DNA of 61,675 nucleotides, from NCBI GenBank assembly GCA_013336225.1, contig JAAXUC010000006.1, positions 1 to 61,675 of the forward strand. Reading direction: 5' to 3'. Below, one piece after another: positions 5,020 to 61,675 of the stretch. Made by a program: the position numbers and the translations under genes. The stretch is from Candidatus Moraniibacteriota bacterium. GTDB taxonomy: Bacteria > Patescibacteriota > Minisyncoccia > Moranbacterales > GWC2-37-73. A model generated the notes under the pieces. It searched no databases. It saw only the letters and a list, made by a program, of their open reading frames with translations, and was not told where the DNA came from. Numbering within the stretch: the stretch's first letter is position 1; the number at the start of each line of letters is the position of its first letter.

Positions 5020-5070
5020 AAAAGTGTAACCACTCAAATTGTCTTAGTATAAATGCAACTGATATATATC

Positions 5071-5099
5071 AAAAAAGACTTCGCGAAGAAGTCTTTTTT
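5071..5099. terminator. Bidirectional rho-independent terminator between convergent genes
   Basis: Sequence AAAAAAGACTTCGCGAAGAAGTCTTTTTT is a perfect 8-bp stem with an A-run on one side and a T-run on the other. It lies between the + gene ending at 5019 and the - gene ending at 5131. Confidence 0.8.
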
Positions 5100-5130
5100 G
5101 GTGACCGATTGTTGATTGCATGATGAATTG

Positions 5131-6663: not shown

Positions 6664-6694
6664 GATTTTGAAGCTAAAATAAAAAATTGAATTA

Positions 6695-33823: not shown

Positions 33824-34835
33824 TGTCTACATACATATGGCGGTTTTCACAAGATAGCAGTATCTTGGAGGATGAGTATACATATGCCAACAACAATTAG
33901 AGAGGAGAGACTCCGATGGGTTGTTCCCATCTATCAGAAGGAGCTCAAACTAAAAGATGTAGCCAAAATGTGCCCTCACAGTAAGAGGAGCTTGGAGCGC
34001 TGGGTTGCTGCATACAAAAAGTATGGAGCAAGAGCCTTGGAACCAAAATCTACACGTCCCAAGAGCCATCCTAAAGAAACTGAGATCAGAATTAAAGAGA
34101 GAGTTATTGAACTGCGAAAGAAAACTAGAAAATGCGCCATAAAATTAAAATGGCAATTAGACAAAGAAGGTATTAATCTTCATAGAAATACCGTTCACAA
34201 AATTATCAAGAAAGAAAGATTAGTTAGAAAATATAGGATCAGAAAATTGAAATACAAATATGTTAAAGTGCCCCTGAGTCCAGGAGAGTTAGTTGAGATA
34301 GATGTAAAATATGTGCCAGAAAAGCTAGGAAACAAGCAGTATTATCAATTCACAGCCATAGACTGCTCTACGAGATGGAGGTATTTAGAAATATATGAGG
34401 ATTGCACAAATCACAGCTCGATAAAGTTTTTGGAAAAAGTGCTAAGAGTTGCACCATTTAGAATACGAGCTATTAAAACTGACAATGGAAGTAATTTCAC
34501 TAATAGATATACGGGGTATGATAAAAGCAGTGATCCTTTGAATCCAAGACTGCATGATCTAGATCTGATGTGTCAAAGTAGAAATGTCATTCACTATCTC
34601 ATTGATTCAGGCAAGCCCGCTCAGAATGGAAAAGTTGAAAGGAGCCACAGATCAGATCAGGAAATTTTCTATGATAGAAATAGGTTTAAGAATGTGGCTG
34701 ATTTAAAGAAGAAGATTAGGATGTGGAATAAGTATTACAATAACCTGGAACACTGCGGTTTAAATGGTAAAACTCCAAACGAAATGCTAGAATTATTAAC
34801 AATCCAAAAACCGACAAATGTATGTGTTTAAAACA
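33824..34835 (+). mobile_element. IS481-family insertion sequence (approximate ends)
   Basis: A single DDE (rve) transposase ORF is present. The imperfect terminal inverted repeats are TGTCTACATACATATGGCGG (left) and CCGACAAATGTATGTGTTTAAAACA (right). It lies between the cassette-4 promoter and site S3. Confidence 0.65.
33872..34831 (+). CDS. IS481-family DDE transposase (integrase core domain)
   Basis: An N-terminal HTH is present (..AKMCPHSKRSLERWV.AYKKYG..AL). DDE catalytic core: first D in VEIDVKYV; second in IKTDNGSNF; third region PAQNGKVERSHRS. Confidence 0.85.
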   Translation: MSIHMPTTIREERLRWVVPIYQKELKLKDVAKMCPHSKRSLERWVAAYKKYGARALEPKSTRPKSHPKETEIRIKERVIELRKKTRKCAIKLKWQLDKEGINLHRNTVHKIIKKERLVRKYRIRKLKYKYVKVPLSPGELVEIDVKYVPEKLGNKQYYQFTAIDCSTRWRYLEIYEDCTNHSSIKFLEKVLRVAPFRIRAIKTDNGSNFTNRYTGYDKSSDPLNPRLHDLDLMCQSRNVIHYLIDSGKPAQNGKVERSHRSDQEIFYDRNRFKNVADLKKKIRMWNKYYNNLEHCGLNGKTPNEMLELLTIQKPTNVCV

Positions 34836-36366: not shown

Positions 36367-37197
36367 ATGCAAAATCCAAACGATCAAATCGCCATCTTTA
36401 GGGGAAAATCAATCAGAAAAATCATTTTTCAAAAGGAATGGTGGTTTTCTGTGGTTGATGTTTGTGGAATACTTACAGATAGTCCTGATTCAGGAGCTTA
36501 TTGGCGGAAGCTTAAACAAAGGCTTAACGAGGAAGGAAGTGAAGTCGTGACATTTTGTCACGGGTTGAAATTGGAGGCTCCAGACGGCAAAATGCGTGAA
36601 ACTGATTGCGCCAATACTGAAGGAATGTTTCGCATAATTCAGTCAGTCCCATCGCCCAAAGCCGAGCCATTAAAGAGATGGCTGGCTAAAGTCGGCTATG
36701 AACGTATTCAAGAAGTGGAAAATCCAGAACTTGCGAGCAAAAGAACGAGATTATTGTATAAACTTAAGGGTTATCCTGAAGAATGGATTGAAATGCGAAT
36801 GAGAGGCATTGCAATCCGTGAAGAATTGACTGACGAATGGCAAAAAAGAGGCGCGAAATACAAAGATGATTACGAGATTTTAACCGCAGAAATATCCGAA
36901 GCCACTTTTGGGATAAAGCCAAATGAATATAAAAAAGTAAAAGGTTTGAAAAATGAAAATCTTCGTGACCACATGGATGACTTCGAACTCATCTTGACCA
37001 TGCTTGGCGAACGAACCACTAAAGAAATTCACAAAACCAACGACTCAAAAGGGTTACCTAGACTTAAGGATGATGCTCGAAAAGGTGGTGCGGTTGCAGG
37101 CACAGCCAGAAAACAAATCGAAAGACAAATAGGCAGGCCGATTGTTTCAGAAAAGAATTTTCTGAGATCTAGTGGTAGGAAGAAAATTAAGAATTGA
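36367..37197 (+). CDS. Bro-N domain protein (antirepressor/DinD-like)
   Basis: The N-terminus F.GK.IR......EWWFSVVDVCGIL is the Bro-N fold signature. The C-terminal helical part resembles DNA-damage-inducible DinD-type proteins. Confidence 0.6.
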   Translation: MQNPNDQIAIFRGKSIRKIIFQKEWWFSVVDVCGILTDSPDSGAYWRKLKQRLNEEGSEVVTFCHGLKLEAPDGKMRETDCANTEGMFRIIQSVPSPKAEPLKRWLAKVGYERIQEVENPELASKRTRLLYKLKGYPEEWIEMRMRGIAIREELTDEWQKRGAKYKDDYEILTAEISEATFGIKPNEYKKVKGLKNENLRDHMDDFELILTMLGERTTKEIHKTNDSKGLPRLKDDARKGGAVAGTARKQIERQIGRPIVSEKNFLRSSGRKKIKN

Positions 37198-37362: not shown

Positions 37363-38820
37363 ATGCAAAAACAAATCTTAAAACTTATTTTCGTACTGAT
37401 GGTGTTTTTGATGTTGCCATCTTTTGCGAGTGCAGCAGTTTTTCTTGATGGGTCAACAATTGGATGCAATAATGGTTCAACCAACTATGCACCTATCACG
37501 CGATCATGCGGAAGTGGAAATGACACTGTTTATTTGGATTTGGCGAATTTCAACACAGGTATTGTGCCAAGTGTCACAAATTATGTTCGTTCTGGCAATT
37601 ATTTTCGCGATGGAGTTCCTGGATCCTTGGTTGTTGCTGTATCAAAATCTGGAATTGATAATAACAATCGCACCGTGATCAGTGCCTATCCAGGAGAGGA
37701 GCGCCAAGTTATTATTGGCACGGCAACGAGAGGAGCGACATATAATTCAAATCCAGGAGACACTGTGTCGCCGTATGGTGGCTCGCAAACATATTATCCC
37801 AACACGGTGCTTGCTATATCGGGTGCAAGTTATGTGACCATCAATGGGTTAAAGATATATGGACAAACATATACCTGGGGTGGTCACGATGTCACACTGC
37901 AAAATTCTGATTTTGGCGGCGGCGGACCTTCGGAATTGCAAGGTAACGTGGTGAAGTTGCATGGGGGAGACACTGGCGGTCAAAATTTGATTGTTCGCAA
38001 TAATGGGATTCATAATAGTTGTTGGGGTGAAAATGATGAAAATGGTAGCGCAATAATCATGTACAATGCCAGCGCTTTAATTGAGGGAAACATCTTTTAT
38101 GATAATTGGGGATATGATATCTTCACTAAAGATAGTGGCAATCAAGCTGGGCAAACAACTGAAATCAAAAATAATTTTTTTGCTCCTTCGGCAATTTTTC
38201 CAGCTGTTGGAGGAATCAGGGGGCACAATCAAGATGTGCAAATAGACAGCCTATTGATTCATCATAATATTTTTTTGCAGAAACAAACTGCATTTGCAGT
38301 TTTGGCAACACCAGTGATAAATAGAATTTATAATAATACTTTTATTAATTCTGCGTATGATATTGGGAACAGTTCAAGTGGTGGCCCACATCCAATTGAG
38401 TCTTATAACAATCTTTTCTATCATGCTACAAATCAATATTTTGCTGAATTATATATGGACACCGGCACGGTTTACACTGATTATTTTGCTGGTTCAAATT
38501 GGAATGTCTTTTATAACAATGGAAGCAAGTGGGGGAAATCTGCACCAGGAGCATTGACATGGGAAACGACCTTGAGTGGCTGGCAAACGCGAACTGGTCT
38601 TGATGGTTCTTCCATTATGGCAAATCCAAATTTTGTAAATGCTGCTGGCACAGTCCCGACAGACTTTAAACGTTCAGCATATATTGAGAACTTTGCTGGA
38701 TCAATGTATGGAACGCATGCTGGAGCATATGAAGTTGGCGATGAACAAATTGGCATTGATTGGTCAATTCAAGCTGATGACATTGCACCTGCTGCGCCAA
38801 GCGGACTTGGTGTGCTGTAA
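37363..38820 (+). CDS. Secreted right-handed beta-helix (pectate-lyase-fold) protein with conserved C-terminal APxxPxGL motif
   Basis: The signal peptide is MQKQILKLIFVLMVFLMLPSFASA. Repeated N-x-I/F-x-x-N turns are present. It ends DDIAPAAPSGLGVL-stop. It is a paralog of the gene at 60141-61553. Confidence 0.7.
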   Translation: MQKQILKLIFVLMVFLMLPSFASAAVFLDGSTIGCNNGSTNYAPITRSCGSGNDTVYLDLANFNTGIVPSVTNYVRSGNYFRDGVPGSLVVAVSKSGIDNNNRTVISAYPGEERQVIIGTATRGATYNSNPGDTVSPYGGSQTYYPNTVLAISGASYVTINGLKIYGQTYTWGGHDVTLQNSDFGGGGPSELQGNVVKLHGGDTGGQNLIVRNNGIHNSCWGENDENGSAIIMYNASALIEGNIFYDNWGYDIFTKDSGNQAGQTTEIKNNFFAPSAIFPAVGGIRGHNQDVQIDSLLIHHNIFLQKQTAFAVLATPVINRIYNNTFINSAYDIGNSSSGGPHPIESYNNLFYHATNQYFAELYMDTGTVYTDYFAGSNWNVFYNNGSKWGKSAPGALTWETTLSGWQTRTGLDGSSIMANPNFVNAAGTVPTDFKRSAYIENFAGSMYGTHAGAYEVGDEQIGIDWSIQADDIAPAAPSGLGVL

Positions 38821-45608: not shown

Positions 45609-46943
45609 ATGCTACTTTCTATGAATATAAAAACACAATTAAAAGAAAAATACGGCGCCTATATCTTGTTTGCTGCAATCATTGTGGTGGGTTCTTCTTT
45701 GTGGTGGCAAAATGGAAAAGCTGACACCGGCAGCATCTCTCAGGAAAGCACTGATGAACAAAAAGAAGCACAAAAGAAAATAGATGATTTGGAAAAAAAA
45801 GCTGATGTTTATCGCGAAATCATTGAAATTAAGAAAAAACAAGGTGAAACACTGAACAACCAGCTCTCCATCACTGATTCAAGTATTGCTGAAGTTAATG
45901 CGCAGATAGATGTCAGCAAACAAAAAATTGATGATTTCAACAGTCAAATATCTCGCATTAGCATGCAAGTGCAAGAAAAAGAAATACTAATAAGCTCACA
46001 GAAGAAAATGCTTGCGCAACTTGTACAGGCATTCTATGAAGTCAACATTGCAAGTCCTGTGGTTTCATATCTGACAGATGGTAATGTGGCATCTTTCATT
46101 GTTAAGAAAGATAGAATCACACAAACCGGAGATAAGGTCAAAGAAATGGTTGCTTCCGTCAAGAAAATAAAAAGCGATCTTGAAGCGCAAAGTGCTGAGT
46201 TGGACAAGAAAAAAGGTGAACTAATCTCAATAAATGAAAAGTTGAGCAACCAAAACAACAACCTTGAATCAATTAAAAATCAAAAAGAAAATCTGCTTGC
46301 TCAAACCAAAGGTGAGGAAGTTCGTTATGCTCAATTATTGGCTCGCGTGGAGCAACAAAAGCAGGAATTGCTGGATATCGATCAGTTTTTTGCAGCTAGC
46401 GGACTTTCAGTTGATTCTTATCCAAAACCTGATTCAAAATATTTCGCATCCACTGCTTGGTATTTTTCACAACGAGATCCTAGATGGGGAAATGAAACAA
46501 TTGGAAATACCAAGACTTTGATGAAAAGTTATGGTTGCGCTGTGACCGCTGTTGCGATGGTTTTCAAGGAACATGGAGGATCAATCAACCCAGGTCAGCT
46601 CTCTTCGAAGCCAATATTTTCTGGTGATTTGATTAATTGGCCGACTTCTTGGACCGATCCACGGGTTGCATTGACTGCCAGTGGCAAAAGCCATGGAAAT
46701 ATAAATTGGTCAATTATTGACGCACAGATTGCCAAAAATAATCCCGTCATTGTTTATATTGGAAAAACGAAGGGAGGTGGTGGTCACTACGTCGTCATTC
46801 ATCATAAAGCAAAAGATGGAAAATATGTGGTGCATGACCCCTATTTTGGTCCAAATCTTTTCTTGGACACTTCACGGGCATTGGTTGGAGCAATGGGCAC
46901 TTCCAGTTCAACGATTATCAATCAAATGATCATCTATAACTAA
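45609..46943 (+). CDS. Membrane-anchored coiled-coil protein with C-terminal C39-like cysteine peptidase domain (putative cell-wall hydrolase)
   Basis: A TM helix is followed by a Q/K/E-rich coiled coil of about 230 aa. Then come YFSQRDPRWGNE....YGCAVTAVAMV and GGGHYVVIH, the Cys and His of a Peptidase_C39_2-type fold. Confidence 0.65.
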   Translation: MLLSMNIKTQLKEKYGAYILFAAIIVVGSSLWWQNGKADTGSISQESTDEQKEAQKKIDDLEKKADVYREIIEIKKKQGETLNNQLSITDSSIAEVNAQIDVSKQKIDDFNSQISRISMQVQEKEILISSQKKMLAQLVQAFYEVNIASPVVSYLTDGNVASFIVKKDRITQTGDKVKEMVASVKKIKSDLEAQSAELDKKKGELISINEKLSNQNNNLESIKNQKENLLAQTKGEEVRYAQLLARVEQQKQELLDIDQFFAASGLSVDSYPKPDSKYFASTAWYFSQRDPRWGNETIGNTKTLMKSYGCAVTAVAMVFKEHGGSINPGQLSSKPIFSGDLINWPTSWTDPRVALTASGKSHGNINWSIIDAQIAKNNPVIVYIGKTKGGGGHYVVIHHKAKDGKYVVHDPYFGPNLFLDTSRALVGAMGTSSSTIINQMIIYN

Positions 46944-46946
46944 GCG

Positions 46947-47810
46947 ATGCAAAAACTAATATTGAAAATATCTTTATTTGCTGCAATATTTTTTGTATTG
47001 CCGAATTCTGCAGAAGCCTGGAGCAAAAATTTTGACATGGAAACTGTCGACACGTCTATTGGAGTTGGTACATTTGGCTCAACAATTTCCAGCGAACATG
47101 CCAATAGTGGAAATAATTCTTTTAAAGTTCCGCTGCTTGCTGGCGTCGAAAATGATGGCCAGCACACTTTTAGTCTGGGTGGGGATTTACATGAAGGAGA
47201 TGAATTATGGGCCAGAGTTTTCATCTACGTGCCAATCGGATTTGATTGGACTGCAATTCCAATCACGAAATTGCTAAGAATAGCACCTGCCAGGGCTGAT
47301 GGAACAGAGTGGGCATATCACTCAATTTTAGCAACAAACAAAAACAATTATGGATGTGGAAGTGAAACAACATTTGGATTCATGGTGACTGGCTCAGAAA
47401 ATAACAGCTCACAATCTCCACCACCAATTTGTCAAAATAGAAATACTGGTGATGGCGGAGCATATATGACTTCTGGGCAATGGAATTCAATTGAATTATA
47501 TATAAAAGTTTCAGCAATAAACGGTGTAATTAGAGCATGGCACAATGGAATTCTTCGCAATGAATATTTTTATCCAACCATCCCATCCGATGGCTATATT
47601 CCTTGGAACAGAACTACTAGTTGGACGCAGCATCATCTCTTAGGGTGGTGGAATGGAGGACCATCTAAGAATCAAGATATATATTTTGATGATCTTGTTT
47701 TGACTAATGAAGTTCCAGCGAGTCGAGATATTGAGAGTAACCCCATGATTGGCGCTAATATTATTGATATTATCGCACCGAATGCACCAATTGGACTTGT
47801 GGTGATATGA
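46947..47810 (+). CDS. Secreted beta-jelly-roll (ConA/polysaccharide-lyase-like) protein with conserved C-terminal APxxPxGL motif
   Basis: The signal peptide is MQKLILKISLFAAIFFVLPNSAEA. The W..IELYIKV....G.I.AW.NG and IYFDDLVL pattern is present. It ends IDIIAPNAPIGLVVI-stop. Its fold is related to the gene at 59225. Confidence 0.6.
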   Translation: MQKLILKISLFAAIFFVLPNSAEAWSKNFDMETVDTSIGVGTFGSTISSEHANSGNNSFKVPLLAGVENDGQHTFSLGGDLHEGDELWARVFIYVPIGFDWTAIPITKLLRIAPARADGTEWAYHSILATNKNNYGCGSETTFGFMVTGSENNSSQSPPPICQNRNTGDGGAYMTSGQWNSIELYIKVSAINGVIRAWHNGILRNEYFYPTIPSDGYIPWNRTTSWTQHHLLGWWNGGPSKNQDIYFDDLVLTNEVPASRDIESNPMIGANIIDIIAPNAPIGLVVI

Positions 47811-54844: not shown

Positions 54845-55126
54845 TCAATAGTGTTCTTCCGGGCTGGCATCGTCAGTGAGTCTCCGAAACAACTTTTTTT
54901 GCTGCCTGAATTTGTCAGGAATTTTTGAAAATCCCAATTCAACAACGGCTTGCCGAAAAGAAATTTCCTTGTCTTTTCCGACTTGTGGAAGCTCCAGAAT
55001 TTCCTCTAGCGTTTTTTTGGATGGGTCAATGTCACAAACAAAATACACATCTCTCAGGTTACATTTTTCAATAAAGGTAACTTTCCAATAATCATCCTTC
55101 ACGTGCACAATGCTTCGATGTTTCAT
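54845..55126 (-). CDS. Hypothetical protein
   Basis: 93 aa. AAGGGGGTGATGTC precedes the ATG on the minus strand. I see no recognisable family. Confidence 0.45.
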   Translation of the reverse strand: MKHRSIVHVKDDYWKVTFIEKCNLRDVYFVCDIDPSKKTLEEILELPQVGKDKEISFRQAVVELGFSKIPDKFRQQKKLFRRLTDDASPEEHY

Positions 55127-55242
55127 GACATCACCCCCTTTTTTTTATTTGTTAAGATTACCAAAACTCTTGTGCCTCCATTATATTCTAATTTGGCTTT
55201 TTGTCTATTGCATATAGTTTAATAAAAAGATATCCTGAGAAT

Positions 55243-55704
55243 ATGAAAATAGCTTGGCTAAAAATCAAAAACTTCTTCGCGCATTTTTTCACACTGGATG
55301 ACACTCCACACAACATTGCTGGCGGAGCAGCGCTGGGAGTTTTTCTTGGAATTTTGCCTGGCGAGGGCTTGGCTACAACTTTAATTATTGCTTCAATTTT
55401 AAAATTAAACAGAGCCTCAGCGACCTTGGGAGTGCTGACAACCAACATGTGGGGCACTTTTTTAGCACTGCCCCTGGCAACCATTGTGGGCGGTTTTCTT
55501 TTTGGTCAAACTCCAGGAAACCTTTCTGACCAATTCTATCAAACATATCACCTTGGATTTAAATTTTTCCTAAGCAAAGCAATCTTTTTCGATTTGGCCC
55601 TGCCACTCATTTCAGGCTTTATCATAGTTTCGCTTTTAATCTCATTTTCACTATACATTTTTGTCTTGATTCTGCTGAAATATTTCAAAACAAAGCAAGA
55701 CTAG
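55243..55704 (+). CDS. DUF2062-like membrane protein
   Basis: The opening MKIAWLKIKNFF....DTPH.IA.G.A.GVF.G..P is typical of the DUF2062 family as I recall it. I set the start at the ATG at 55243. Confidence 0.5.
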   Translation: MKIAWLKIKNFFAHFFTLDDTPHNIAGGAALGVFLGILPGEGLATTLIIASILKLNRASATLGVLTTNMWGTFLALPLATIVGGFLFGQTPGNLSDQFYQTYHLGFKFFLSKAIFFDLALPLISGFIIVSLLISFSLYIFVLILLKYFKTKQD

Positions 55705-55828
55705 GAACATTCTTTTTTATATAAAAATGAACAAAAATGCTTGACATTTGGCAACCAATATGTCAAAATACTGTCTTAGTATCTTTACAACTGAAAGACA
55801 AATAAACCTATATAGGAGAGGTGCAATC

Positions 55829-56941
55829 ATGGAAAAAACAGTCAAATCGGTAGATCAGTCAGCGGTGTGCAATGCTTTTTGGGAACAAACTCCAGATTCG
55901 ATGTGGGCCACTGATTTAACGGGGATATTGCTAAGGGTTAGCATGAAAAAAGCGGAAAATCATGGTTTTGTTGATCCAGAAGAAATGATTGGCAAAATGT
56001 TTGATGATGAAAGGTTCATGAAGCCAGATGAGGCAGAACAAGTGCGCAAATATATGACCGAAATGCTAATCACTGGAGAAAAAATTGCTGATAAAATTCA
56101 GCGTCTTGAACGAGATGGACGGATAATTTATTACTCAGTTTCCATGTTCCCCATCTTTGGAGAAAATAAGGAAATTGTGGGATTTGCAGGGACATCTCGT
56201 GACATCACTGAAAGAATAAATATTGAAGAAAATCTCAAAAATTTTTACACAACTGCTACTCACGGCATTAAAAATCCATTAGTTTTTGGCAATGGAATTT
56301 TACGAAGAGTTATTAATGGTAAATTTGGGCATATCAGTGATAATGTCAAAGCAACACTGCAGAATTTATTGCACGGCTACGATCGAGGAGAAAAAGAATG
56401 CGTTGAAACCATAGTAAGAATGGTAGCACTTGGTCTTGGAGAGAAAACATTTGCTGCAAAAAATTGTCATGTTGATGTTGGATTGGAAATCTTATTGCGA
56501 GTTCTTAATAAGCATGAGAAAGAACTTGATGAAAAAAACATAACCATCGACAATAGGATGCATTCCATCCCCCCAGGGGCAGTTAAATTGCAAACAGATA
56601 GCAATATGTTGTTTTCAATTTTTGATAACCTCATTGATAATGCTATTAAATATTGCAGTATCGGCGGCGTTATCTCTATTGGATATTGTATCTCTAAAGC
56701 TACCAATGAAATCATTTTTAATGTTTATGATGATGGCGATCCTCCATCTGAAGAATTTGTAAATGAGCGCATGGGTAAAAAATTTCAGCGTGACAATATA
56801 ACTGAAGATGGTACAGGCATTGGAATATATTCAGTAAAAGAATCTGTGCGCATGCTTGGTGGAAGGTTTTGGTATGAAGAAACCGAATCTGGGCATCCGA
56901 ATTTTCTCTTTGCTTTTCCACTCTCTGATTTGATAATCTAA
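55829..56941 (+). CDS. Cytoplasmic PAS-domain sensor histidine kinase (no cognate response regulator in window)
   Basis: The PAS region reads W.TD..G....VS; a second PAS-like block ending RDITER follows. The H-box-like motif is ATHGIKNPL. HATPase_c N-box: DNLIDNAIKY. G-boxes: YDDGDP and GTGIGIY. AGGAGAGG lies upstream of the ATG at 55829. Confidence 0.75.
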   Translation: MEKTVKSVDQSAVCNAFWEQTPDSMWATDLTGILLRVSMKKAENHGFVDPEEMIGKMFDDERFMKPDEAEQVRKYMTEMLITGEKIADKIQRLERDGRIIYYSVSMFPIFGENKEIVGFAGTSRDITERINIEENLKNFYTTATHGIKNPLVFGNGILRRVINGKFGHISDNVKATLQNLLHGYDRGEKECVETIVRMVALGLGEKTFAAKNCHVDVGLEILLRVLNKHEKELDEKNITIDNRMHSIPPGAVKLQTDSNMLFSIFDNLIDNAIKYCSIGGVISIGYCISKATNEIIFNVYDDGDPPSEEFVNERMGKKFQRDNITEDGTGIGIYSVKESVRMLGGRFWYEETESGHPNFLFAFPLSDLII

Positions 56942-57009
56942 TCAGTAAGAGTGGTGACACTAAAAATCCAACATATTTAAAATTTGTTCAACAGCAAAAG
57001 GAGGACGTC

Positions 57010-57555
57010 ATGGGAGATGGAATGATGGGGTTGATGGCATTTTTTTCACTCTTGAAAAGTACGCCTGATTCAATGGTTTGGAAAAAATACAGAGCTAATG
57101 GAAATGGTGGAGTTGAAGGTGGAGAAATTGAATTTGCCAGCATGGCAAAGGCCAGGCATTATAACTTGGATATGCAAAGCATTCGCGGCAAGACAGATTT
57201 TGATTTGATGCTGTCTCATGAGCAAGCTCAACAAGCCCTCAGAGATGACATTTGGGTAATACAAAATAATAAGGCCATTGAAGATCGTGAAGAAATAATA
57301 ACACACGAGAATGGTGGCGATGCTATAATTTCAGTTTCCAAATTTCCATGGACAATTTCCGATGAAAAAAAAGTGATTGGCTCAATCTGCACAGCCAGAG
57401 ACATAACCATCAGGAAAAAAGCCATGCTGCGTGTCTCTGAACTTGAAACATTGCTTCTTGAAGAAATCTTGCCTTTTTTGGAATCATTAGCTGAACATCA
57501 AGATGTTGTTACTGCTTTAATACAAAAAATCAAAAAAATGGAAACGGCACGCTAA
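57010..57555 (+). CDS. Stand-alone PAS-domain protein
   Basis: 181 aa with a GKTDFDL...... PAS core ending ARDITIRK. AAGGAGGACGTC lies upstream. Confidence 0.6.
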   Translation: MGDGMMGLMAFFSLLKSTPDSMVWKKYRANGNGGVEGGEIEFASMAKARHYNLDMQSIRGKTDFDLMLSHEQAQQALRDDIWVIQNNKAIEDREEIITHENGGDAIISVSKFPWTISDEKKVIGSICTARDITIRKKAMLRVSELETLLLEEILPFLESLAEHQDVVTALIQKIKKMETAR

Positions 57556-57685
57556 CAACAACAAAAAGCTCTGCGCGATAAATTCGCCAGAGCTTTTTAA
57601 TTTACTTTCAAGTCCTTGTGTCTAATCATTGTGCAACCCAGGTGAATTGCATTCATACTAAATACATTCTACAAAATACTTTATA

Positions 57686-58378
57686 CTAACGTATAATTGT
57701 CCCAACAAACTTCTCCCCATTTAAATATTTTTCAAGATTTTTCACTTTCTTGCCATTTAAAATTGAGACCTCAATCCCCTCTTTGGCGGCCAACTTGGAA
57801 GCGATTGGATCAAAAGGCACATTGGAACCTGGATCCCAGGAATCTCCCACAATTTTCTGAAATTCTGACCACGCAATTTCTTTGATTTTTTTGGCATCAG
57901 CATGTTTGCGCGGGTCTTTGTCATAAACATAATCAATATTAGAAAGGTTGGCAATCTTTTTCACATCAAAATGCTTGGCCAACAAAACGGAAATATAGTC
58001 CGTGGAATTTCCTGGACGATAACCCGCAGCCACCAAAATTGATTCCTTGGCTTTCAGAAAACTTTCCAAATCGTATGGATTCTTGTTGATGGTTGGATGC
58101 GCATATTTCTTGAAAATTGTTCGGATAAAGTGAGCATTCATGCGGGTGGCGTGAATTCCAATCCAATCTTTGTCTTCATTGTCAATGTCCCCAATTTTTG
58201 CGCCAGCTTCAATATATTTGCGCGCAGTTTTTCCACCTCCGGTGACGATGATGAAGCGAAAACCCTTGGCAATGCCATCCTCAATAACCTTTTTGAATTG
58301 TTTCACAAATTTCCAGTCAATTTCTTCTGGCACAATCAAGGATCCTCCCAATGAAATGACAATAGTTTTCTTATTCAT
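57686..58378 (-). CDS. pyrH: UMP kinase (archaeal/short type, amino-acid-kinase fold)
   Basis: IVISLGGS...... and VTGGG..AR.YI are present, with a later GYRPG.STD block. The 230-aa length resembles archaeal-type PyrH. Confidence 0.8.
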   Translation of the reverse strand: MNKKTIVISLGGSLIVPEEIDWKFVKQFKKVIEDGIAKGFRFIIVTGGGKTARKYIEAGAKIGDIDNEDKDWIGIHATRMNAHFIRTIFKKYAHPTINKNPYDLESFLKAKESILVAAGYRPGNSTDYISVLLAKHFDVKKIANLSNIDYVYDKDPRKHADAKKIKEIAWSEFQKIVGDSWDPGSNVPFDPIASKLAAKEGIEVSILNGKKVKNLEKYLNGEKFVGTIIR

Positions 58379-58471
58379 ATTTATATCTTTAACTATTTAA
58401 GTTTTATTTATTATAGCACAGGACGCAAAGTGCTACACTTGCTTAAAAAGCGGATATGTGCTTTACTATGA

Positions 58472-58625
58472 ATACGTTTTGAGGACATGGAAGTGCTAAG
58501 TGAGCAGCGGGCTTCGCACCCCTTGCTGAGGTTTCGCACCCTCCACTTCTTCTATCAGCGTGCTGCTGAAGAAACATCTCCTCATTGGAAGCAATGGACA
58601 GACCAGATCTTGGTCTGTCCATCTT
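58472..58625 (+). ncRNA. Candidate structured sRNA, copy 1 (unknown class)
   Basis: A promoter-like TTGCTT..TACTAT lies at 58439-58469. The conserved 5' end is ACGTTTTGAGGACATGG. Nested helices are TGAGGACATG/CATCTCCTCA, GAAGTG/CACTTC and TTCTTC..GAAGAA. The 3' hairpin is ATGGACAGACCA-GATC-TTGGTCTGTCCAT. There is no ORF. Confidence 0.5.
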
Positions 58626-58681
58626 AATATCAAAATTAGGCAGCCTGCTTGCATGAAAAACAATTAGCTGCTTTACTATAT

Positions 58682-58838
58682 ATACGTTTTGAGGATATGT
58701 GAATGAACGTTCAGCATGGGACCCTCACCAGTCCTATTGCAGAGGGCAAACCCTCCATTCGCAACAAATATTTCCCCTCCAAGGGCTATCCTCGAAACTA
58801 AGCAGGCAGACCGAGAATCATCGGACTGCCTGCTTTCA
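58682..58838 (+). ncRNA. Candidate structured sRNA, copy 2 (paralog of copy 1)
   Basis: A promoter-like TTGCAT..TACTAT lies at 58649-58679. The same 5' end is present (ACGTTTTGAGGATATG). Helices are GTTTTGAGGATA/TATCCTCGAAAC, GTGAATG/CATTCGC and GAGGG-CAAA-CCCTC. The 3' hairpin is AAGCAGGCAG..CTGCCTGCTT. Confidence 0.5.
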
Positions 58839-58894
58839 TATCTAAATGCAAGAAAATTTACTTGATGAACTTGTAACTTTATAAACTTTGCAAC

Positions 58895-59188
58895 TTATTT
58901 TATATGCTCGTCAGCTTGATTCTTGGTTTCATGAAGTTTGGCAATCGTTTGTCTGATCTCATCCTTGATTCCCAGAAACATTTCCAAACCTTTCTGCAAT
59001 TCTTCCAAACCTTTTTTATATTTCTCCAAAACTTCTGCCGTCGCCTTTTCCTCCACCTGCTTTTCCAGCATTTCTTGTCCAACTTGCAAATGATTTTCAA
59101 GCTCTTCAATTTCCCCATCAATCTTCTTCAAATCCTCCTGCAATCTTGCATCAATTTCCTCAAACGTCTTCGGCTCTTTATTTTCCAT
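58895..59188 (-). CDS. Small E/K-rich coiled-coil protein
   Basis: 97 aa with heptad-like E/K/L composition. I see no recognisable family. Confidence 0.5.
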   Translation of the reverse strand: MENKEPKTFEEIDARLQEDLKKIDGEIEELENHLQVGQEMLEKQVEEKATAEVLEKYKKGLEELQKGLEMFLGIKDEIRQTIAKLHETKNQADEHIK

Positions 59189-59224
59189 GATATTTTATAA
59201 AATATTTATCTTAAATTATTTAAA

Positions 59225-60094
59225 TCAATTTACGCCAAGTCCAGTTGGCGCGCTTGGCGCGATCACATCAGCAGTTGGCATTCCATCCCAAACCTGGATA
59301 TCATCAAATTGATATCCACATGCATATCCTGTTCCGTCTATTGATTGATTAACTTCAGCTTGGTCCACATATAAAAGTTGCAAGCCACGCAAATGAAAAT
59401 CTGGATAGACAGGAACTTTTCCATCAAAAATATAACTTGCGGTTGTGCCTCTGGCTAATAATTTATACCCATCAATCCAGAATGAGACATAATGTTCGAT
59501 ATAATTGACATAGATATCAAACTTATGCCATTGACCATCTGAACCTCCAGGATCAGCCAATGGATTTCCAAGGTAGGCTTGAATATAACCCCAATTTTCC
59601 GTGTCCCAACTTTGTGGCCAAGCACCATTGCCAACAAAAGATGAATCGTTTGGCCCCCAGGCCATCCGCGTATAATAAGCAGTGGTTGATTTGATATCAT
59701 CTGTCAAATATTCCCCTTTTCCATGTCCAACCATTGTCCCTTGCCAAGTTGCACCATCAAAGCGTCTCCAATAACTGATAAATATTTCATTTGGGGTTTG
59801 TGAGGATATATTATTTCCGACATATTCCAATTGAGGATTGCTAACCCCAAGCAAGCCAGTGATTGGATCAAGCTTGTTTAACATAAGATTTCCTCGCAAA
59901 CAATAATCGCCGCCATGGCAAGTGTTGTTCACTCGAGCTATTTTTCCTTGCCAAGCACCTGAACGAAAAGAAGTTTCCCATCCAGCTGCTTCAAAATCCA
60001 AACTATGAATCAAGTTAGCCGCACTGACAAAATTTGGGAACATTAAAAACGTTGCGCAAAGAAGCATTAATTTTAGATTTTTGAATTTATACAT
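59225..60094 (-). CDS. Secreted beta-jelly-roll (ConA/polysaccharide-lyase-like) protein with conserved C-terminal APxxPxGL motif
   Basis: The signal peptide is MYKFKNLKLMLLCATFLMFPNFVSA. The W.KFDIYVNY....VSFWIDG and YQFDDIQVW pattern is present. It ends ADVIAPSAPTGLGVN-stop. Confidence 0.6.
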   Translation of the reverse strand: MYKFKNLKLMLLCATFLMFPNFVSAANLIHSLDFEAAGWETSFRSGAWQGKIARVNNTCHGGDYCLRGNLMLNKLDPITGLLGVSNPQLEYVGNNISSQTPNEIFISYWRRFDGATWQGTMVGHGKGEYLTDDIKSTTAYYTRMAWGPNDSSFVGNGAWPQSWDTENWGYIQAYLGNPLADPGGSDGQWHKFDIYVNYIEHYVSFWIDGYKLLARGTTASYIFDGKVPVYPDFHLRGLQLLYVDQAEVNQSIDGTGYACGYQFDDIQVWDGMPTADVIAPSAPTGLGVN

Positions 60095-60140
60095 GATACA
60101 TGCTTCAAGTTTATTCTCGAGACACTATATTAATTCTTTT

Positions 60141-61553
60141 CTACATGACAGAGAGTCCATTGGGTGATGATGGAGCAATCAAGTCAGTTGAGGATGAAAA
60201 TACCCCGACTGAGCTGATGTCTGCACCCATATCAAGACCCTCGCGACCAGCGGCTCGACAAAAAGAATTTGAGGCCAAAGCAAAATCTGTCAAAAGACTG
60301 AAATTTCCAGAAACATTCACGAAACCAGGATCACTCATTAAGTCTCCAACTCCAGGAGAAAGATTTCCTTCCAACTCATCGGATCCTTGCCAAGAAGCAA
60401 TAGAGTTATAGGTAGTCTCATTGGATTCATATATATGCAGATTTATCAGCATTGAGGTGCCCCATTGATTATGATCGGCTTCCGCTATTTCCTTATCAGC
60501 ACCAGACATGCCCAATGATTTATTGAATCCAGTGATTATGTTGTTGTAAAATTTTGGTCGATGACCAGCAAACGTGGTATCCATTCCTATGGCTTGATCA
60601 TTAGTGTTTGGATTTCCATAAAAAGTATTGTTACTGAATATCAAATCATCAGCTCTTTCATCGTATTCTGCAGAATTAATGTTATCCCAAACGCTCATGG
60701 CCATATACTTGCTTCCCGCTATCACATTATTTATTAAAGTGTTTCTCTCACAAGCACCATCCAGGTTGTCGTTAGTGTTAAGGAAAGCAACATAATTATC
60801 ATGCAGATAGTTATCTTGAATCAAACTATCGTCAATATTGTCCTTAAAATGAATTCCGTTGGTGCATTCGTATATTTCATTATTTTTTATAACAATGTGA
60901 TGTGAATCGTACCCATTGATGCAGTTATTGTTGTAATTATTACTCGTTTCTTTGTATTCATGTATCTCGTTATTTTCAATGGTGAGATAGGAGGCATTGT
61001 TCATGGAGATGGCCGCATTATTGTTTGCTCCACCTTGACTATGTGTTCCACCAACAAATTCACAATTTTTAATGACGCAATAATCAGCCTCGACCCTGAG
61101 GGTGACCATGATGTCAACTGTATCAGCTTGATTTCTAGCAGTGATTAGGAATCCGTCCCAAGTAATATAGTTCTTGTGATATGAGCCCAAAACTGTGCTG
61201 ACATAGGCTTCTGCCGTAGCTCCTATGCCGTGGATATTAGCTCCATGTTGATTGAGTGATTTGAAAATGATCGGATTGCCAGCTGTCCCACTATTTGTCG
61301 GGTGGAGGGCTGGAATTTTGTAATCAGGATCATTTTGAATTACGGAATAAATTCCATCGAGAAAGTATACGACATCCCCAGCAACGGCATTGCTCATTCC
61401 AGCTTGCGCTGAACAAGGCACATTAATATTCGTGCAAACAGGCCAGCTTGCTTCTCCTGTCGGCGAAACATAATATGTTGCCGCCTTGGAGAAATTTGGC
61501 AGCATAAAAAACGTCACACAAAGAAAAATTAATTTATATAGTTGTTTTTGCAT
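60141..61553 (-). CDS. Secreted right-handed beta-helix protein with conserved C-terminal APxxPxGL motif
   Basis: I set the start at the ATG at 61553, giving MQKQLYKLIFLCVTFFMLPNFSKA. Repeated NN.I..N turns are present. It ends TDLIAPSSPNGLSVM-stop. It is a paralog of the gene at 37363. Confidence 0.7.
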   Translation of the reverse strand: MQKQLYKLIFLCVTFFMLPNFSKAATYYVSPTGEASWPVCTNINVPCSAQAGMSNAVAGDVVYFLDGIYSVIQNDPDYKIPALHPTNSGTAGNPIIFKSLNQHGANIHGIGATAEAYVSTVLGSYHKNYITWDGFLITARNQADTVDIMVTLRVEADYCVIKNCEFVGGTHSQGGANNNAAISMNNASYLTIENNEIHEYKETSNNYNNNCINGYDSHHIVIKNNEIYECTNGIHFKDNIDDSLIQDNYLHDNYVAFLNTNDNLDGACERNTLINNVIAGSKYMAMSVWDNINSAEYDERADDLIFSNNTFYGNPNTNDQAIGMDTTFAGHRPKFYNNIITGFNKSLGMSGADKEIAEADHNQWGTSMLINLHIYESNETTYNSIASWQGSDELEGNLSPGVGDLMSDPGFVNVSGNFSLLTDFALASNSFCRAAGREGLDMGADISSVGVFSSSTDLIAPSSPNGLSVM

Positions 61554-61560
61554 GTTTTTA

Positions 61561-61675
61561 TTATAGCACGCTGAGACCACTCGGTGCGCTTGGCGCAATA
61601 ATATCCGCACCCATATCAGGTCCAATGTGCTCTGTGCTTATCACAAAATCATCAACCTCAAGCGCTTGCCATGAA
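61561..61675 (-). CDS. 3' fragment of another secreted protein of the same family (truncated by window edge)
   Basis: The minus-strand frame is open to the window end and reads ..SWQALEVDDFVISTEHIGPDMGADIIAPSAPSGLSVL-stop. It carries the same terminal motif and lies 7 nt upstream of the next family member. Confidence 0.6.
   Translation of the reverse strand, partial: SWQALEVDDFVISTEHIGPDMGADIIAPSAPSGLSVL

What the first reader, a model, noticed from the sequence alone, without database searches (positions are those of the whole stretch)
59225..61675. Five secreted proteins of two unrelated folds share both a signal peptide and a C-terminal D-(I/L)-I-A-P-x-x-P-x-G-L-x-V-x-COOH tag
The five members end as follows:
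- 37363-38820 (beta-helix): DDIAPAAPSGLGVL
- 46947-47810 (jelly-roll): IDIIAPNAPIGLVVI
- 59225-60094 (jelly-roll): ADVIAPSAPTGLGVN
- 60141-61553 (beta-helix): TDLIAPSSPNGLSVM
- 61561-61675 (fragment): ADIIAPSAPSGLSVL

All five stop 2-3 residues after the G-L, using TAA, TGA and TAG, so this is not readthrough or recoding. The N-termini are also alike (M-Q-K-x-L-x-K-L-I-F....F-(F/L)-M-L-P-N-F-x-x-A).

The sequence APSAPTGL normally opens a bacterial FN3 domain, but here it terminates the protein and no TM segment follows. It is therefore unlike LPXTG or PEP-CTERM-type sorting signals.

Modular sharing across folds suggests a short C-terminal sorting, docking or processing tag. One speculative partner is the PDZ domain of the Ctp protease at 25786-27081, because S/G-V-(L/M/I)-COOH resembles PDZ ligands.
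Basis: partly seen in the sequence, partly recalled or inferred. Interest (0 to 1): 0.65.

Follow-up and report, generated by a model that had tools for sequence, protein, structure and literature searches.

The report
Detached FN3-strand docking tag on enzymes
Secreted polysaccharide-cutting enzymes of this Patescibacteria (CPR) bacterium all end in the same 14-residue peptide, which looks like the detached first strand of a fibronectin-III domain. Related genomes encode, right next to such genes, membrane- or wall-anchored fibronectin-III domains that lack exactly that strand, which points to an undescribed plug-and-socket way of hanging enzymes on the cell surface.

Summary
Five ORFs in the window end in D-x-I-A-P-x-x-P-x-G-L-x-V-x-stop, and a sixth lies just past the window's end.

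A degenerate DNA scan of 185,579 reference genomes found the same ending almost only in Patescibacteria. It occurs there in tandem arrays on more than 20 sequence families, mostly polysaccharide lyase or glycosidase-like. In long ORFs the motif ended exactly one residue before the stop in 80 of 81 cases. It is coupled to a conserved signal peptide (MQKQILK…LPNFxxA).

AlphaFold leaves the tail of protein D free, so it is not part of the enzyme fold. No known sorting-signal model matches it.

An unbiased neighbour analysis found one recurrent untagged family. These are small proteins with a signal peptide or TM anchor, followed immediately by an FN3 domain that starts at strand B (strand A is missing). 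They often carry a peptidoglycan-binding domain or a dockerin.

My best explanation (about 0.55) is that the tag is the missing strand A supplied in trans. That would be a split-FN3, cohesin/dockerin-like docking system. Binding itself is inferred, not shown.

The Ctp-PDZ idea is not supported: the conserved residues sit at -1 and -3, which is the wrong register, and the last residue varies.

The parts
37363..38820 (+). Gene A: secreted right-handed beta-helix protein (485 aa) with the conserved signal peptide MQKQILKLIFVLMVFLMLPSFASA and the C-terminal tag
   Evidence: NosD/beta-helix; signal-peptide pattern
38776..38817 (+). Tag of A: DDIAPAAPSGLGVL, followed by TAA
46947..47810 (+). Gene B: secreted jelly-roll-type protein (287 aa, no Pfam hit). 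It starts 4 nt after the stop of a coiled-coil + C39-like peptidase gene (45609-46943).
47766..47807 (+). Tag of B: DIIAPNAPIGLVVI, followed by TGA
59225..60094 (-). Gene C: secreted jelly-roll-type protein (289 aa). In homologs from other metagenomes the same position holds FN3-strand-A-like tails, a dockerin, or Ig-like domains.
59228..59269 (-). Tag of C: DVIAPSAPTGLGVN, followed by TGA
60141..61553 (-). Gene D: secreted Pel9A/PL6-like beta-helix protein (470 aa from MQKQLYK). The AlphaFold model has pLDDT 92.5, with the last ~20 residues at low confidence and unstructured.
60144..60185 (-). Tag of D: DLIAPSSPNGLSVM, followed by TAG
61561..61675 (-). Gene E, C-terminal 37 codons only (frame 61561-61674). 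The complete gene (296 aa, jelly-roll 'EIIFQDNFD' type, signal peptide MQKQIFTICFLLAAFFMLPSFAHA) and a sixth tagged gene lie beyond the window on contig L127.
61564..61605 (-). Tag of E: DIIAPSAPSGLSVL, followed by TAA

Best explanation
The 14-residue ending D-x-(I/T)-(A/P)-P-x-x-P-x-G-L-x-V-x-COOH is a docking tag. It consists of the usual bacterial inter-domain linker plus strand A of an FN3 domain, cut off exactly where the A-B hairpin would begin.

The tagged proteins are exported by Sec, using a conserved signal peptide. They are mostly polysaccharide lyase or glycosidase-like enzymes. The tail stays flexible on the folded enzyme.

I propose that the tail inserts as the missing edge strand beside strand B of a dedicated receptor. 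The receptor is a small protein made of a signal peptide or N-terminal TM anchor followed immediately by an FN3 domain that starts at strand B ('FN3-deltaA'). It is tethered to the envelope by the TM anchor or a peptidoglycan-binding domain, or bridged onward through a dockerin. Many enzymes would thus be displayed on few receptors, as dockerins are displayed on cohesins, but by strand complementation of a split domain.

The usual gene order, tagged genes followed by the receptor on the same strand, fits an origin by fission of an enzyme-FN3-anchor gene between strands A and B.

Shown here:
- The tag, its conservation, its fixed distance from the C-terminus, its modularity and its taxonomic spread.
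- The free tail in the D model.
- The FN3-deltaA family, its anchors, and its adjacency to tagged genes.
- Single proteins that carry both halves in exact register.

Inferred: physical binding of tag to receptor, and surface display as the purpose.
For: 1. The tag is under selection and position-locked.
- In 71 tagged proteins: D(-14) 68/71, P(-10) 71/71, P(-7) 71/71, G(-5) 71/71, L(-4) 69/71, V(-2) 68/71 (numbering with the last residue as -1).
- In long ORFs of all fetched loci the motif ends exactly one residue before the stop in 80 of 81 cases, and it never opens an internal FN3.
- L and V alternate (i, i+2), as expected for a strand with one buried face.

2. The tag is modular.
- It sits on more than 20 sequence clusters, including beta-helix, HepII_C/DUF4962, GH123, PL14, polysaccharide lyase, TIG and CBM5/12.
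- It occurs in tandem arrays in Moranbacteria, Wolfebacteria, Paceibacterota, Saccharibacteria and unnamed CPR MAGs.

3. The slot it occupies is an anchoring slot. Homologs of C and D carry at the same place a dockerin, a T9SS CTD or TM sorting tails.

4. The tail is not part of the enzyme fold. The D model has pLDDT 92.5, falling to 67 and then 52 in the last 20 residues, with no secondary structure there.

5. Unbiased clustering of all ORFs around tagged genes gives one recurrent untagged family, FN3-deltaA: 7 members in 6 loci from 5 genomes.
- Pfam fn3 matches start at profile positions 9-16 of 84, against 2-81 for an intact FN3 in the same protein.
- Against the solved ChiA1 FN3 (1K85), the receptor signal peptide lies where strand A would be.

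6. All 120 best homologs show the same design: SP or TM, then G(S/T)ATLSWNANTExDLAGYKIYYG.
- Many are only about 125 aa (TM + FN3-deltaA).
- Many others are about 166 aa (SP + FN3-deltaA + dockerin). Such proteins have no other plausible job than binding and bridging.
- PG_binding_1 anchors also occur.

7. The reciprocal test works. Starting from a receptor (P0153), its contig shows four tagged genes directly followed by two receptor genes.
- The same order occurs in L054, L057, L062 and L063.
- In all 13 loci that hold both, they lie on the same strand and 0-1204 bp apart.

8. The logic recurs outside CPR.
- L117: an FN3-deltaA protein with a C-terminal TM anchor, followed by a jelly-roll enzyme ending APAPPTNFKVN.
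- L081: two anchored FN3-deltaA proteins plus an FN3-deltaA-beta-helix protein ending DTTPPTSPTGLTVN.

9. Both halves occur in one protein, in exact register.
- In P0145, P0165 and P0184, [C-terminal tail + mature N-terminus] aligns without a gap across the junction to the intact second FN3.
- The tail adds 37-44 BLOSUM units, against 5 +/- 6 for shuffled tails.
- AlphaFold gives domain 1 six strands starting at B, and domain 2 seven strands.
- P0291 and P0366 show the same phase-shifted repeats.
Against: - No binding was tested or modelled.
- The one AlphaFold run that could have shown cis-docking (P0145) left the tail as coil at pLDDT 69-82.
- Direct tag+receptor concatenations did not extend the Pfam fn3 match to position 1. 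They scored no better than scrambled tags. The junction lacks about 4 loop residues, so this test is weak.
- Co-localisation is partial. Only 6 of 31 tag-seeded CPR blocks (5 of 14 genomes) hold a receptor. The binomial P is 0.004 at a 5% background but 0.08 at 10%.
- Only 12 of 75 receptor loci hold a tagged gene in view. Many of those contigs are short.
- The window itself (61.7 kb, five tags) and its 2.4 kb extension hold no receptor.
- N-terminal FN3 domains that start at strand B are widespread, also at the head of very large non-CPR proteins. A few internal copies also lack a canonical strand A. The deltaA form may simply be a stable six-stranded variant with another role.
Confidence: 0.55

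Rival explanations
1. The tag is a docking or retention peptide, but its receptor is something other than FN3-deltaA. Candidates are peptidoglycan or another wall polymer, an S-layer or pilus protein, or the tagged enzymes themselves (oligomerisation). The FN3-deltaA genes would then be just another class of surface protein that happens to sit in the same surface-protein islands.
For: - The tail is free and conserved.
- Most receptor loci show no tagged gene, and most tag loci show no receptor.
- The window holds none.
- The deltaA form is common in many bacteria.
Against: - The complementarity would be a large coincidence: a tag that is linker + strand A, beside a neighbour that is FN3 minus strand A.
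- There are also single proteins carrying both halves in exact register.
- All 13 co-occurrences are on the same strand and adjacent.
- Neighbour clustering turned up no other recurrent family.
Confidence: 0.22
2. The tag is a recognition signal for an enzyme rather than a receptor. One option is a carboxy-terminal processing protease (Ctp, via its PDZ domain) that trims or releases the proteins. Another is an unknown transpeptidase that links them covalently to the envelope.
For: - The fixed distance to the free C-terminus suggests that the carboxylate is read.
- A Ctp/S41-PDZ gene lies 6-10 kb from tagged genes in the window, L023 and L039.
- The invariant Asp at -14 could be reactive.
Against: - Conserved residues are at -1 and -3. 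The canonical PDZ-read positions 0 and -2 are variable, and position 0 is often E, N, S or Q.
- Ctp proximity is confined to one syntenic housekeeping block of one lineage and is absent from the Wolfebacteria and ELA025 arrays.
- No TM or basic tail is present to hold a substrate at a membrane transpeptidase.
- No NCBIfam sorting-domain model hits.
Confidence: 0.12
3. The ending is a functionless remnant. Ancestral enzyme-FN3 fusions lost the FN3 domain through nonsense mutations, and only the harmless first strand was left behind.
For: - The sequence is identical in type to the start of bacterial FN3 domains.
- Some homologs do continue into Ig-like or FN3 domains.
Against: - The stop position is the same in 80 of 81 cases.
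- Six positions are near-invariant across phylum-level CPR lineages and more than 20 protein families, while the bodies share under 25% identity.
- Synonymous divergence shows purifying selection on the peptide.
- The tag is coupled to a specific signal peptide.
Confidence: 0.03

Closest known systems
Cohesin-dockerin assembly (cellulosomes)
   Same: - Many secreted carbohydrate-active enzymes carry one short C-terminal module that would plug into a few anchored receptor modules.
- Receptors are tethered to the wall or membrane.
- Here some receptors themselves carry a dockerin.
- Some homologs of C and D carry a dockerin in the tag's place.
   Different: - A dockerin is an autonomous, roughly 60-70 residue Ca-binding fold that binds the face of a complete cohesin.
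- The tag is 14 residues, is not a domain, and would complete an incomplete FN3 fold.
Donor-strand complementation/exchange (chaperone-usher pili, type V pili, TasA fibres, archaeal threads and cannulae; papers listed)
   Same: - An Ig-like or FN3-like beta-sandwich lacks one edge strand and would be completed by a strand from another polypeptide.
- The donor has alternating hydrophobic residues.
- P0145-type proteins, with acceptor head and donor tail, look like polymerising subunits.
   Different: - Those systems build homopolymeric filaments, and the classical ones use chaperone/usher or protease priming.
- Here the donor sits on enzymes of many folds and the acceptor on a separate anchored receptor. 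The proposed purpose is heterotypic display, not filament growth.
- No chaperone or usher was seen.
SpyTag/SpyCatcher and other engineered split Ig-like domains
   Same: A 13-14 residue peptide that is one strand of a bacterial beta-sandwich domain and would dock onto the rest of the domain supplied separately.
   Different: - SpyTag is man-made from CnaB2 and locks by an isopeptide bond.
- Here the split is natural and involves FN3.
- A covalent lock is pure speculation; it rests only on the invariant Asp in the tag and invariant Lys/Glu in the receptor.
LPXTG sorting signal paired with YSIRK-type signal peptides (own knowledge)
   Same: A special conserved signal peptide is coupled to a special C-terminal signal on surface proteins of many families.
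   Different: - There is no LPXTG, no hydrophobic segment and no basic tail.
- No sortase dependence is indicated.
PDZ-binding C-terminal motifs / Ctp (Tsp) substrates
   Same: A short motif at a fixed distance from the free carboxylate.
   Different: The conserved residues are in the opposite register (-1 and -3), and the terminal residue is variable, including acidic residues.

Membership tests
LPXTG / sortase cell-wall sorting signal | LPXTG-like pentapeptide followed by a hydrophobic TM segment and a positively charged tail | tested here: not met
   The proteins end one residue after GLxV. There is no hydrophobic segment or basic tail, and nothing in frame follows the stop.
PEP-CTERM, GlyGly-CTERM, PGF-CTERM, MYXO-CTERM and other exosortase, archaeosortase or rhombosortase signals | Signature motif + TM helix + basic cluster at the extreme C-terminus, with a matching NCBIfam/TIGRFAM model | tested here: not met
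   An NCBIfam scan of A-D at E<=1 gives no C-terminal-domain hit, and there is no TM segment. Some homologs of D do carry such TM tails in place of the tag.
T9SS C-terminal sorting domain (PF18962) | Roughly 70-100 residue beta-sandwich CTD | tested here: not met
   The tag is 14 residues and gives no Pfam hit. PF18962 occurs in other homologs of D at the same position.
Dockerin (PF00404) | Duplicated Ca-binding loop-helix motif of about 60-70 residues | tested here: not met
   There is no PF00404 hit on A-D. A dockerin is present instead of the tag in P0006 and P0096, and on about 25 of 120 FN3-deltaA receptors.
PDZ ligand (class I/II) / Ctp substrate | Conserved hydrophobic residue at position 0 and a conserved residue at -2 relative to the free carboxylate | tested here: not met
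   Position 0 is L21, E14, I12, N5, M4, S4 and others. The -2 position is S, G, A, N, E and others. The conserved residues are V at -1 and L at -3.
PDZ ligand (class I/II) / Ctp substrate | Physical binding or cleavage by the Ctp of the same genome (window 25786-27081) | not testable with these tools
   Only neighbourhood could be examined. Ctp is near tags only in one syntenic lineage.
FN3 domain (PF00041) | Complete seven-stranded sandwich (strands A-G) in one chain | tested here: not met
   The tag corresponds only to the linker plus strand A. Receptors match fn3 profile positions 9-16 to about 80 only. AlphaFold gives six strands for the N-terminal domain of P0145 and seven for its second domain.
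Donor-strand complementation systems | Acceptor subunit with an Ig/FN3-like fold lacking one strand | tested here: met
Donor-strand complementation systems | Donor strand with alternating buried hydrophobic residues on another polypeptide (or on the opposite end of the same subunit) | tested here: met
   Conserved L(-4) and V(-2). In P0145, P0165 and P0184 the tail + head aligns ungapped to an intact FN3, about 6 SD above shuffled tails.
Donor-strand complementation systems | Demonstrated insertion of the donor strand into the acceptor (structure or binding) | tested here: inconclusive
   The AlphaFold monomer of P0145 leaves the tail undocked. The Pfam chimera test was uninformative. Multimer modelling was not available.
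Donor-strand complementation systems | Dedicated chaperone/usher or priming protease encoded with the subunits | tested here: not met
   No such genes appear among neighbours in the window or the loci. Chaperone-free DSC systems are known, so this feature is not strictly required.

The most novel reading that the evidence does not exclude
Split-FN3 strand complementation is a general, so far unrecognised protein-display and assembly principle.

- In Patescibacteria, dozens of secreted enzymes per genome would plug a 14-residue strand-A tag into membrane-, wall- or dockerin-linked FN3-deltaA sockets.
- The same logic would operate in other bacteria: anchored N-terminal FN3-deltaA proteins next to enzymes ending in PxNLxV-type tails, and EPS-locus beta-helix enzymes with such tails.
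- It would also operate in phages, where head-socket and tail-plug proteins would polymerise.
- The complex might be locked by the free carboxylate or even covalently.

That would make it a natural counterpart of SpyTag/SpyCatcher and a minimal alternative to cohesin-dockerin.
Probability: 0.3. Interest if true: 0.9.

Novelty: new variant of a known kind. Interest (0 to 1): 0.8.

Why it matters
- Patescibacteria are tiny, mostly uncultured episymbionts. How they organise their surface and attack or harvest polysaccharides is largely unknown.
- A tag-and-socket system would explain the architecture of a large share of their 'hypothetical' secreted proteins. It would give a simple sequence rule for predicting their surface-displayed enzyme set, and it would name a function for the very common small FN3 proteins.
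- Mechanistically it would extend donor-strand complementation from filament building to heterotypic enzyme display.
- It would show how a multidomain gene can be split between two strands of one domain and still work.
- A natural 14-residue peptide/90-residue domain pair is also of obvious interest as a protein-engineering tool.
- All of this is directly testable with a peptide and one small recombinant domain.

Tried and rejected
- **Known sorting-signal models.** NCBIfam and Pfam scans of A-D gave no hit on the tail.
- **Literature.** Five searches covered the tag sequences themselves, CPR sorting signals, CPR dockerin/cohesin, and FN3 strand complementation. They found no description of this motif.
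- **Cis-docking of the tail on its own enzyme.** Rejected for D: AlphaFold leaves the tail unstructured.
- **Cis-docking in P0145.** Not predicted, so inconclusive.
- **Pfam fn3 scan of tag+receptor concatenations against scrambled tags.** The gain was <=1 bit and the match did not extend to profile position 1. This was uninformative, probably because the A-B loop is missing.
- **Receptor in the window.** Regex and HMM searches of the six frames found none. None lies in the 2.4 kb beyond the window either.
- **Annotated context through the window's own contig.** One look-up found no record and another only a 3.9 kb contig.
- **Same-genome test for L038.** L038 is a receptor-bearing contig from the same sample.
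- **Strict tag pattern in IMG/VR viral contigs.** Zero hits, so the CPR tag is not phage-borne.
- **Exhaustive profile search for receptors.** It was swamped by giant multi-FN3 proteins and is not usable as a census.
- **Recoding or readthrough into FN3.** Rejected: all three stop codons are used and nothing in frame follows.
- **Tag-receptor covariation across loci.** Too few matched pairs (about 12) to attempt.
Full report
**1. The observation.**
- A 37363-38820 (+) DDIAPAAPSGLGVL-TAA
- B 46947-47810 (+) DIIAPNAPIGLVVI-TGA
- C 59225-60094 (-) DVIAPSAPTGLGVN-TGA
- D 60141-61553 (-) DLIAPSSPNGLSVM-TAG
- E 61561-61674 (-) DIIAPSAPSGLSVL-TAA

C, D and E are on the minus strand. A six-frame search for AP..P.GL finds only these five sites in the 61.7 kb window (39% G+C), each three residues before a stop.

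An alignment of the DNA ends shows invariant first and second codon positions, differing third positions, and no similarity after the stop. The peptide is therefore conserved by selection. Gene conversion and readthrough do not explain it.

Pfam calls A and D right-handed beta-helices, and finds nothing in B and C.

A public contig identical to the window's end (depth 19.6, no variants) runs 2.4 kb further. It shows E complete (296 aa) and a sixth tagged gene before it, giving a tandem array F-E-D-C.

**2. It is not a private feature of close paralogs.**
Homologs of C from unrelated metagenomes end variously:
- ...DADMIPPVEPANLHVR, ...SMPPAAPSNLRPN, ...NPPQNLTVQ
- with a dockerin
- by continuing into Ig-like domains

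Of 120 homologs of D from many phyla, 33 end in a P-x-(G/N)-(L/V)-x-(V/I) tail. Examples are DTVPPSAPTGLVIQ, DTTPPAAPSGLSVS, PPTNLRVQ and LPAPRNLR. Others carry a dockerin, a T9SS CTD or a TM sorting tail at that place. The position is thus a slot for anchoring modules.

Non-CPR homologs of D sit inside exopolysaccharide biosynthesis loci with Wzx, Wzy, glycosyltransferases and PEP-CTERM proteins.

**3. Distribution of the strict tag.**
I back-translated D-x-I-A-P-x-x-P-x-G-L-x-V-x-stop and scanned one genome for each of 185,579 species. By my own estimate about 13 chance matches were expected. The scan gave 35 loci:
- 31 come from Patescibacteria-type MAGs: Moranbacteria, Wolfebacteria (a complete genome), Paceibacterota, Saccharibacteria, unnamed 'bacterium ELA025/ELA218', and two MAGs labelled Bdellovibrionales.
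- The other four are short chance ORFs.

Reading the flanks showed 84 ORFs with the ending, mostly in tandem arrays of three to six genes. Most of these were not selected by the pattern itself.

Over all loci, the motif in long ORFs ends exactly one residue before the stop in 80 of 81 cases. It never opens an internal FN3 domain.

The logo from 71 proteins is D(-14) 68, A/P(-11) 70, P(-10) 71, P(-7) 71, G(-5) 71, L(-4) 69 and V(-2) 68 (numbering with the last residue as -1). The last residue is variable.

The tagged proteins fall into more than 20 BLAST clusters. Those with Pfam hits are beta-helix, heparinase-II-like, GH123, PL14/polysaccharide lyase, TIG and CBM5/12.

D's model resembles Pel9A and PL6 lyases. 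The jelly-roll profile only faintly touches glucuronan lyase (E = 0.68).

The window is syntenic with a Moranbacteria contig, at 51-67% identity over five genes. Its first 23 kb is a surface-polysaccharide cluster.

**4. The N-terminus.**
Of 61 full-length tagged proteins, 37 share the signal peptide MQKQILKLFFLLAIFFMLPNFAxA|A across genomes and folds. With a strict pattern, 22 of 23 complete ORFs having it also have the tag. This pairing of a special signal peptide with a special C-terminal signal recalls YSIRK with LPXTG (my own knowledge).

**5. What the tag is not.**
- No NCBIfam or Pfam model covers it.
- It has no TM segment.
- AlphaFold models D at pLDDT 92.5, but the last 20 residues drop to 67 and then 52 and have no secondary structure. 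The tail is a free peptide and is not part of the fold.
- The PDZ idea fails on register. The conserved side chains are at -1 and -3, whereas positions 0 and -2 vary, and position 0 is often E, N, S or Q.
- Ctp is near tags only within one syntenic housekeeping block: the window, L023 and L039.

**6. The candidate partner.**
I clustered every ORF in the tag-seeded CPR loci. One untagged family recurred next to the arrays in different genomes, with seven members in six loci.
- All begin with a signal peptide or an N-terminal TM anchor. Immediately after it comes (A/G)(S/T)ATL(S/T)WNANTExDLAGYKVYYG, an FN3 domain starting at strand B.
- Pfam fn3 matches begin at profile positions 9-16 of 84. An intact FN3 further down one of these proteins matches 2-81.
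- Against the solved ChiA1 FN3 (1K85), the receptor's signal peptide occupies the place of strand A.
- C-terminal parts are peptidoglycan-binding domains, other repeats, or nothing.

A profile search gave 1,341 relatives. The best 120 are nearly all 100-245 aa with the same design, and about 25 end in a dockerin. A protein that is only TM + FN3-deltaA, or SP + FN3-deltaA + dockerin, can hardly be anything but a binding or bridging module.

**7. Linkage.**
- Starting from a receptor (P0153), its contig shows four tagged genes in a row followed directly by two receptor genes. Next comes the same GT-LytR-GT-Ctp-SecDF block as in the window.
- A metagenome scan with the receptor core gave 80 loci. 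L054, L057, L062 and L063 repeat the order tagged genes then receptor.
- In all 13 loci that hold both, they are on the same strand and 0-1204 bp apart.
- The association is partial. Only 6 of 31 tag-seeded blocks (5 of 14 genomes) hold a receptor, which gives binomial P = 0.004 at a 5% background but 0.08 at 10%. Only 12 of 75 receptor loci show a tag, though many of those contigs are short.
- The window has no receptor.

**8. Complementarity.**
The tag is the linker plus strand A, and it stops where the A-B turn would start. The receptor starts where strand B starts.

Three phage-borne proteins (P0145, P0165, P0184) carry both halves: SP, FN3-deltaA, an intact FN3, then a tail KDTTPPAPPAAPTLKISQ.
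- Joining tail to mature N-terminus gives a sequence that aligns without any gap across the junction to the intact second domain.
- The tail contributes 37-44 score units, against 5 +/- 6 for shuffled tails.
- AlphaFold gives six strands (starting at B) for domain 1 and seven for domain 2, but it leaves the tail undocked.

P0291 and P0366 show the same phase-shifted repeat, (B..G-linker-A)n. L099 has the same FN3 subfamily with strand A in cis...NPVAPAGLSAISTYSALKLSWNAN....

Outside CPR the logic recurs:
- L117 pairs a C-terminally TM-anchored FN3-deltaA protein with a jelly-roll enzyme ending APAPPTNFKVN.
- L081 has two anchored FN3-deltaA proteins and a third that is FN3-deltaA + beta-helix + DTTPPTSPTGLTVN.

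**9. Interpretation.**
The best-supported reading is a split-FN3 docking system. Enzymes would be exported with a dedicated signal peptide, and their free C-terminal strand A would complete an FN3-deltaA socket on a membrane-, wall- or dockerin-linked receptor.

The fixed one-residue overhang suggests that the carboxylate itself is positioned, perhaps against the receptor's N-terminal amine or the conserved Lys at the end of strand G. This is inference only.

The gene order suggests an origin by fission of an enzyme-FN3-anchor gene within the A-B turn.

Binding is not shown. Confidence is about 0.55 for this mechanism, and about 0.9 that the tag is a functional modular C-terminal signal.

Rivals are another receptor (0.22), an enzyme-recognition signal including Ctp (0.12), and a functionless remnant (0.03).

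**10. Comparison and novelty.**
Functionally it works like cohesin-dockerin. Mechanistically it works like donor-strand complementation in pili, TasA, and archaeal threads and cannulae (papers). As an object it resembles the engineered SpyTag/SpyCatcher.

It fails the defining features of LPXTG, PEP-CTERM-type, T9SS-CTD, dockerin and PDZ-ligand signals.

I found no description of it in the searchable literature. I rate it a new variant of a known kind: strand complementation used for heterotypic enzyme display through a naturally split FN3.

Noticed in passing
beyond window end; L127:384-1595 and L127:1673-2563: A public contig identical to window 55000-61675 continues 2.4 kb past the window's end. 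It holds the complete gene E and a sixth tagged gene (403 aa, ...GDTIAPNAPSGLLVL). The array is therefore F-E-D-C.
   Followed up: yes
window 37363-37437, 46947-47021, 60014-60094, 61479-61553; many loci: The signal peptide MQKQILKLFFLLAIFFMLPNFAxA is conserved across genomes and folds, and is almost always coupled to the tag (22 of 23 complete ORFs). This suggests a dedicated export or cleavage route. The 'LPNF' c-region is unexplained.
   Followed up: partly
window 36367-37197; L001:11529-12362: A Bro-N domain gene sits next to tagged genes both in the window and in a related contig (71% identity). In L001 a RhuM gene is also nearby. This may reflect a mobile-element or regulatory association.
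   Followed up: no
window 45609-46943: A coiled-coil + peptidase C39-like protein ends 4 nt before tagged gene B, which looks operonic. The family does not recur next to tags in other loci.
   Followed up: partly
L041/L042 (P0145); L128-L144: Proteins of the form SP + FN3-deltaA + intact FN3 + strand-A tail lie in large phage-like contigs (Portal_T4, intein), and 17 IMG/VR contigs hold relatives. Some small viral SP + FN3-deltaA proteins carry dockerins. They are possible head-to-tail polymers or decoration proteins.
   Followed up: partly
P0143, P0144, P0163, P0169 and others; L039:10406-10939; L038:2924-3547: About a fifth of the small FN3-deltaA proteins end in a type-I dockerin. This implies that cohesin-bearing scaffolds exist in Patescibacteria. 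I did not look for the cohesins.
   Followed up: no
L008, L012, L015, L027, L033: Two MAGs labelled 'uncultured Bdellovibrionales' carry arrays nearly identical in type to those of Wolfebacteria: the same signal peptide, the same tag and the same jelly-roll family. Their taxonomic label or binning looks doubtful.
   Followed up: no
L045, L046 (P0039, P0048): Non-CPR homologs of beta-helix D lie inside exopolysaccharide biosynthesis clusters (Wzx, Wzy, GT4, deacetylase, PEP-CTERM protein). They end in related tails (DTIPPAKPTGISVQVIN, DNTPPSPPIGVGVNVNL). No partner was seen within 10 kb.
   Followed up: partly
window 4-8326: Four paralogous PMT_2-type membrane glycosyltransferase genes (4-1605, 1598-3415, 3412-5019, 6695-8326) flank a Wzx-like flippase. 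With GT2, UDP-glucose dehydrogenase and Wzy_C genes up to about 23 kb, they form a surface-glycan cluster. That glycan could be the substrate or the context of the tagged lyases.
   Followed up: partly
window 29996-30859 and 33872-34831: A tyrosine recombinase (phage integrase family) and an IS-type rve integrase lie between the housekeeping block and the first tagged gene. There is no tRNA anywhere in the window.
   Followed up: no
L078-type loci, e.g. L071, L079, L083, L093, L118, L123: Many large (600-1977 aa) non-CPR proteins begin, right after the signal peptide, with an FN3 that starts at strand B (A|AQIKLAWDPNTEPDLAGYKVYYG). What covers or uses that open edge in these organisms is unknown.
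   Followed up: no
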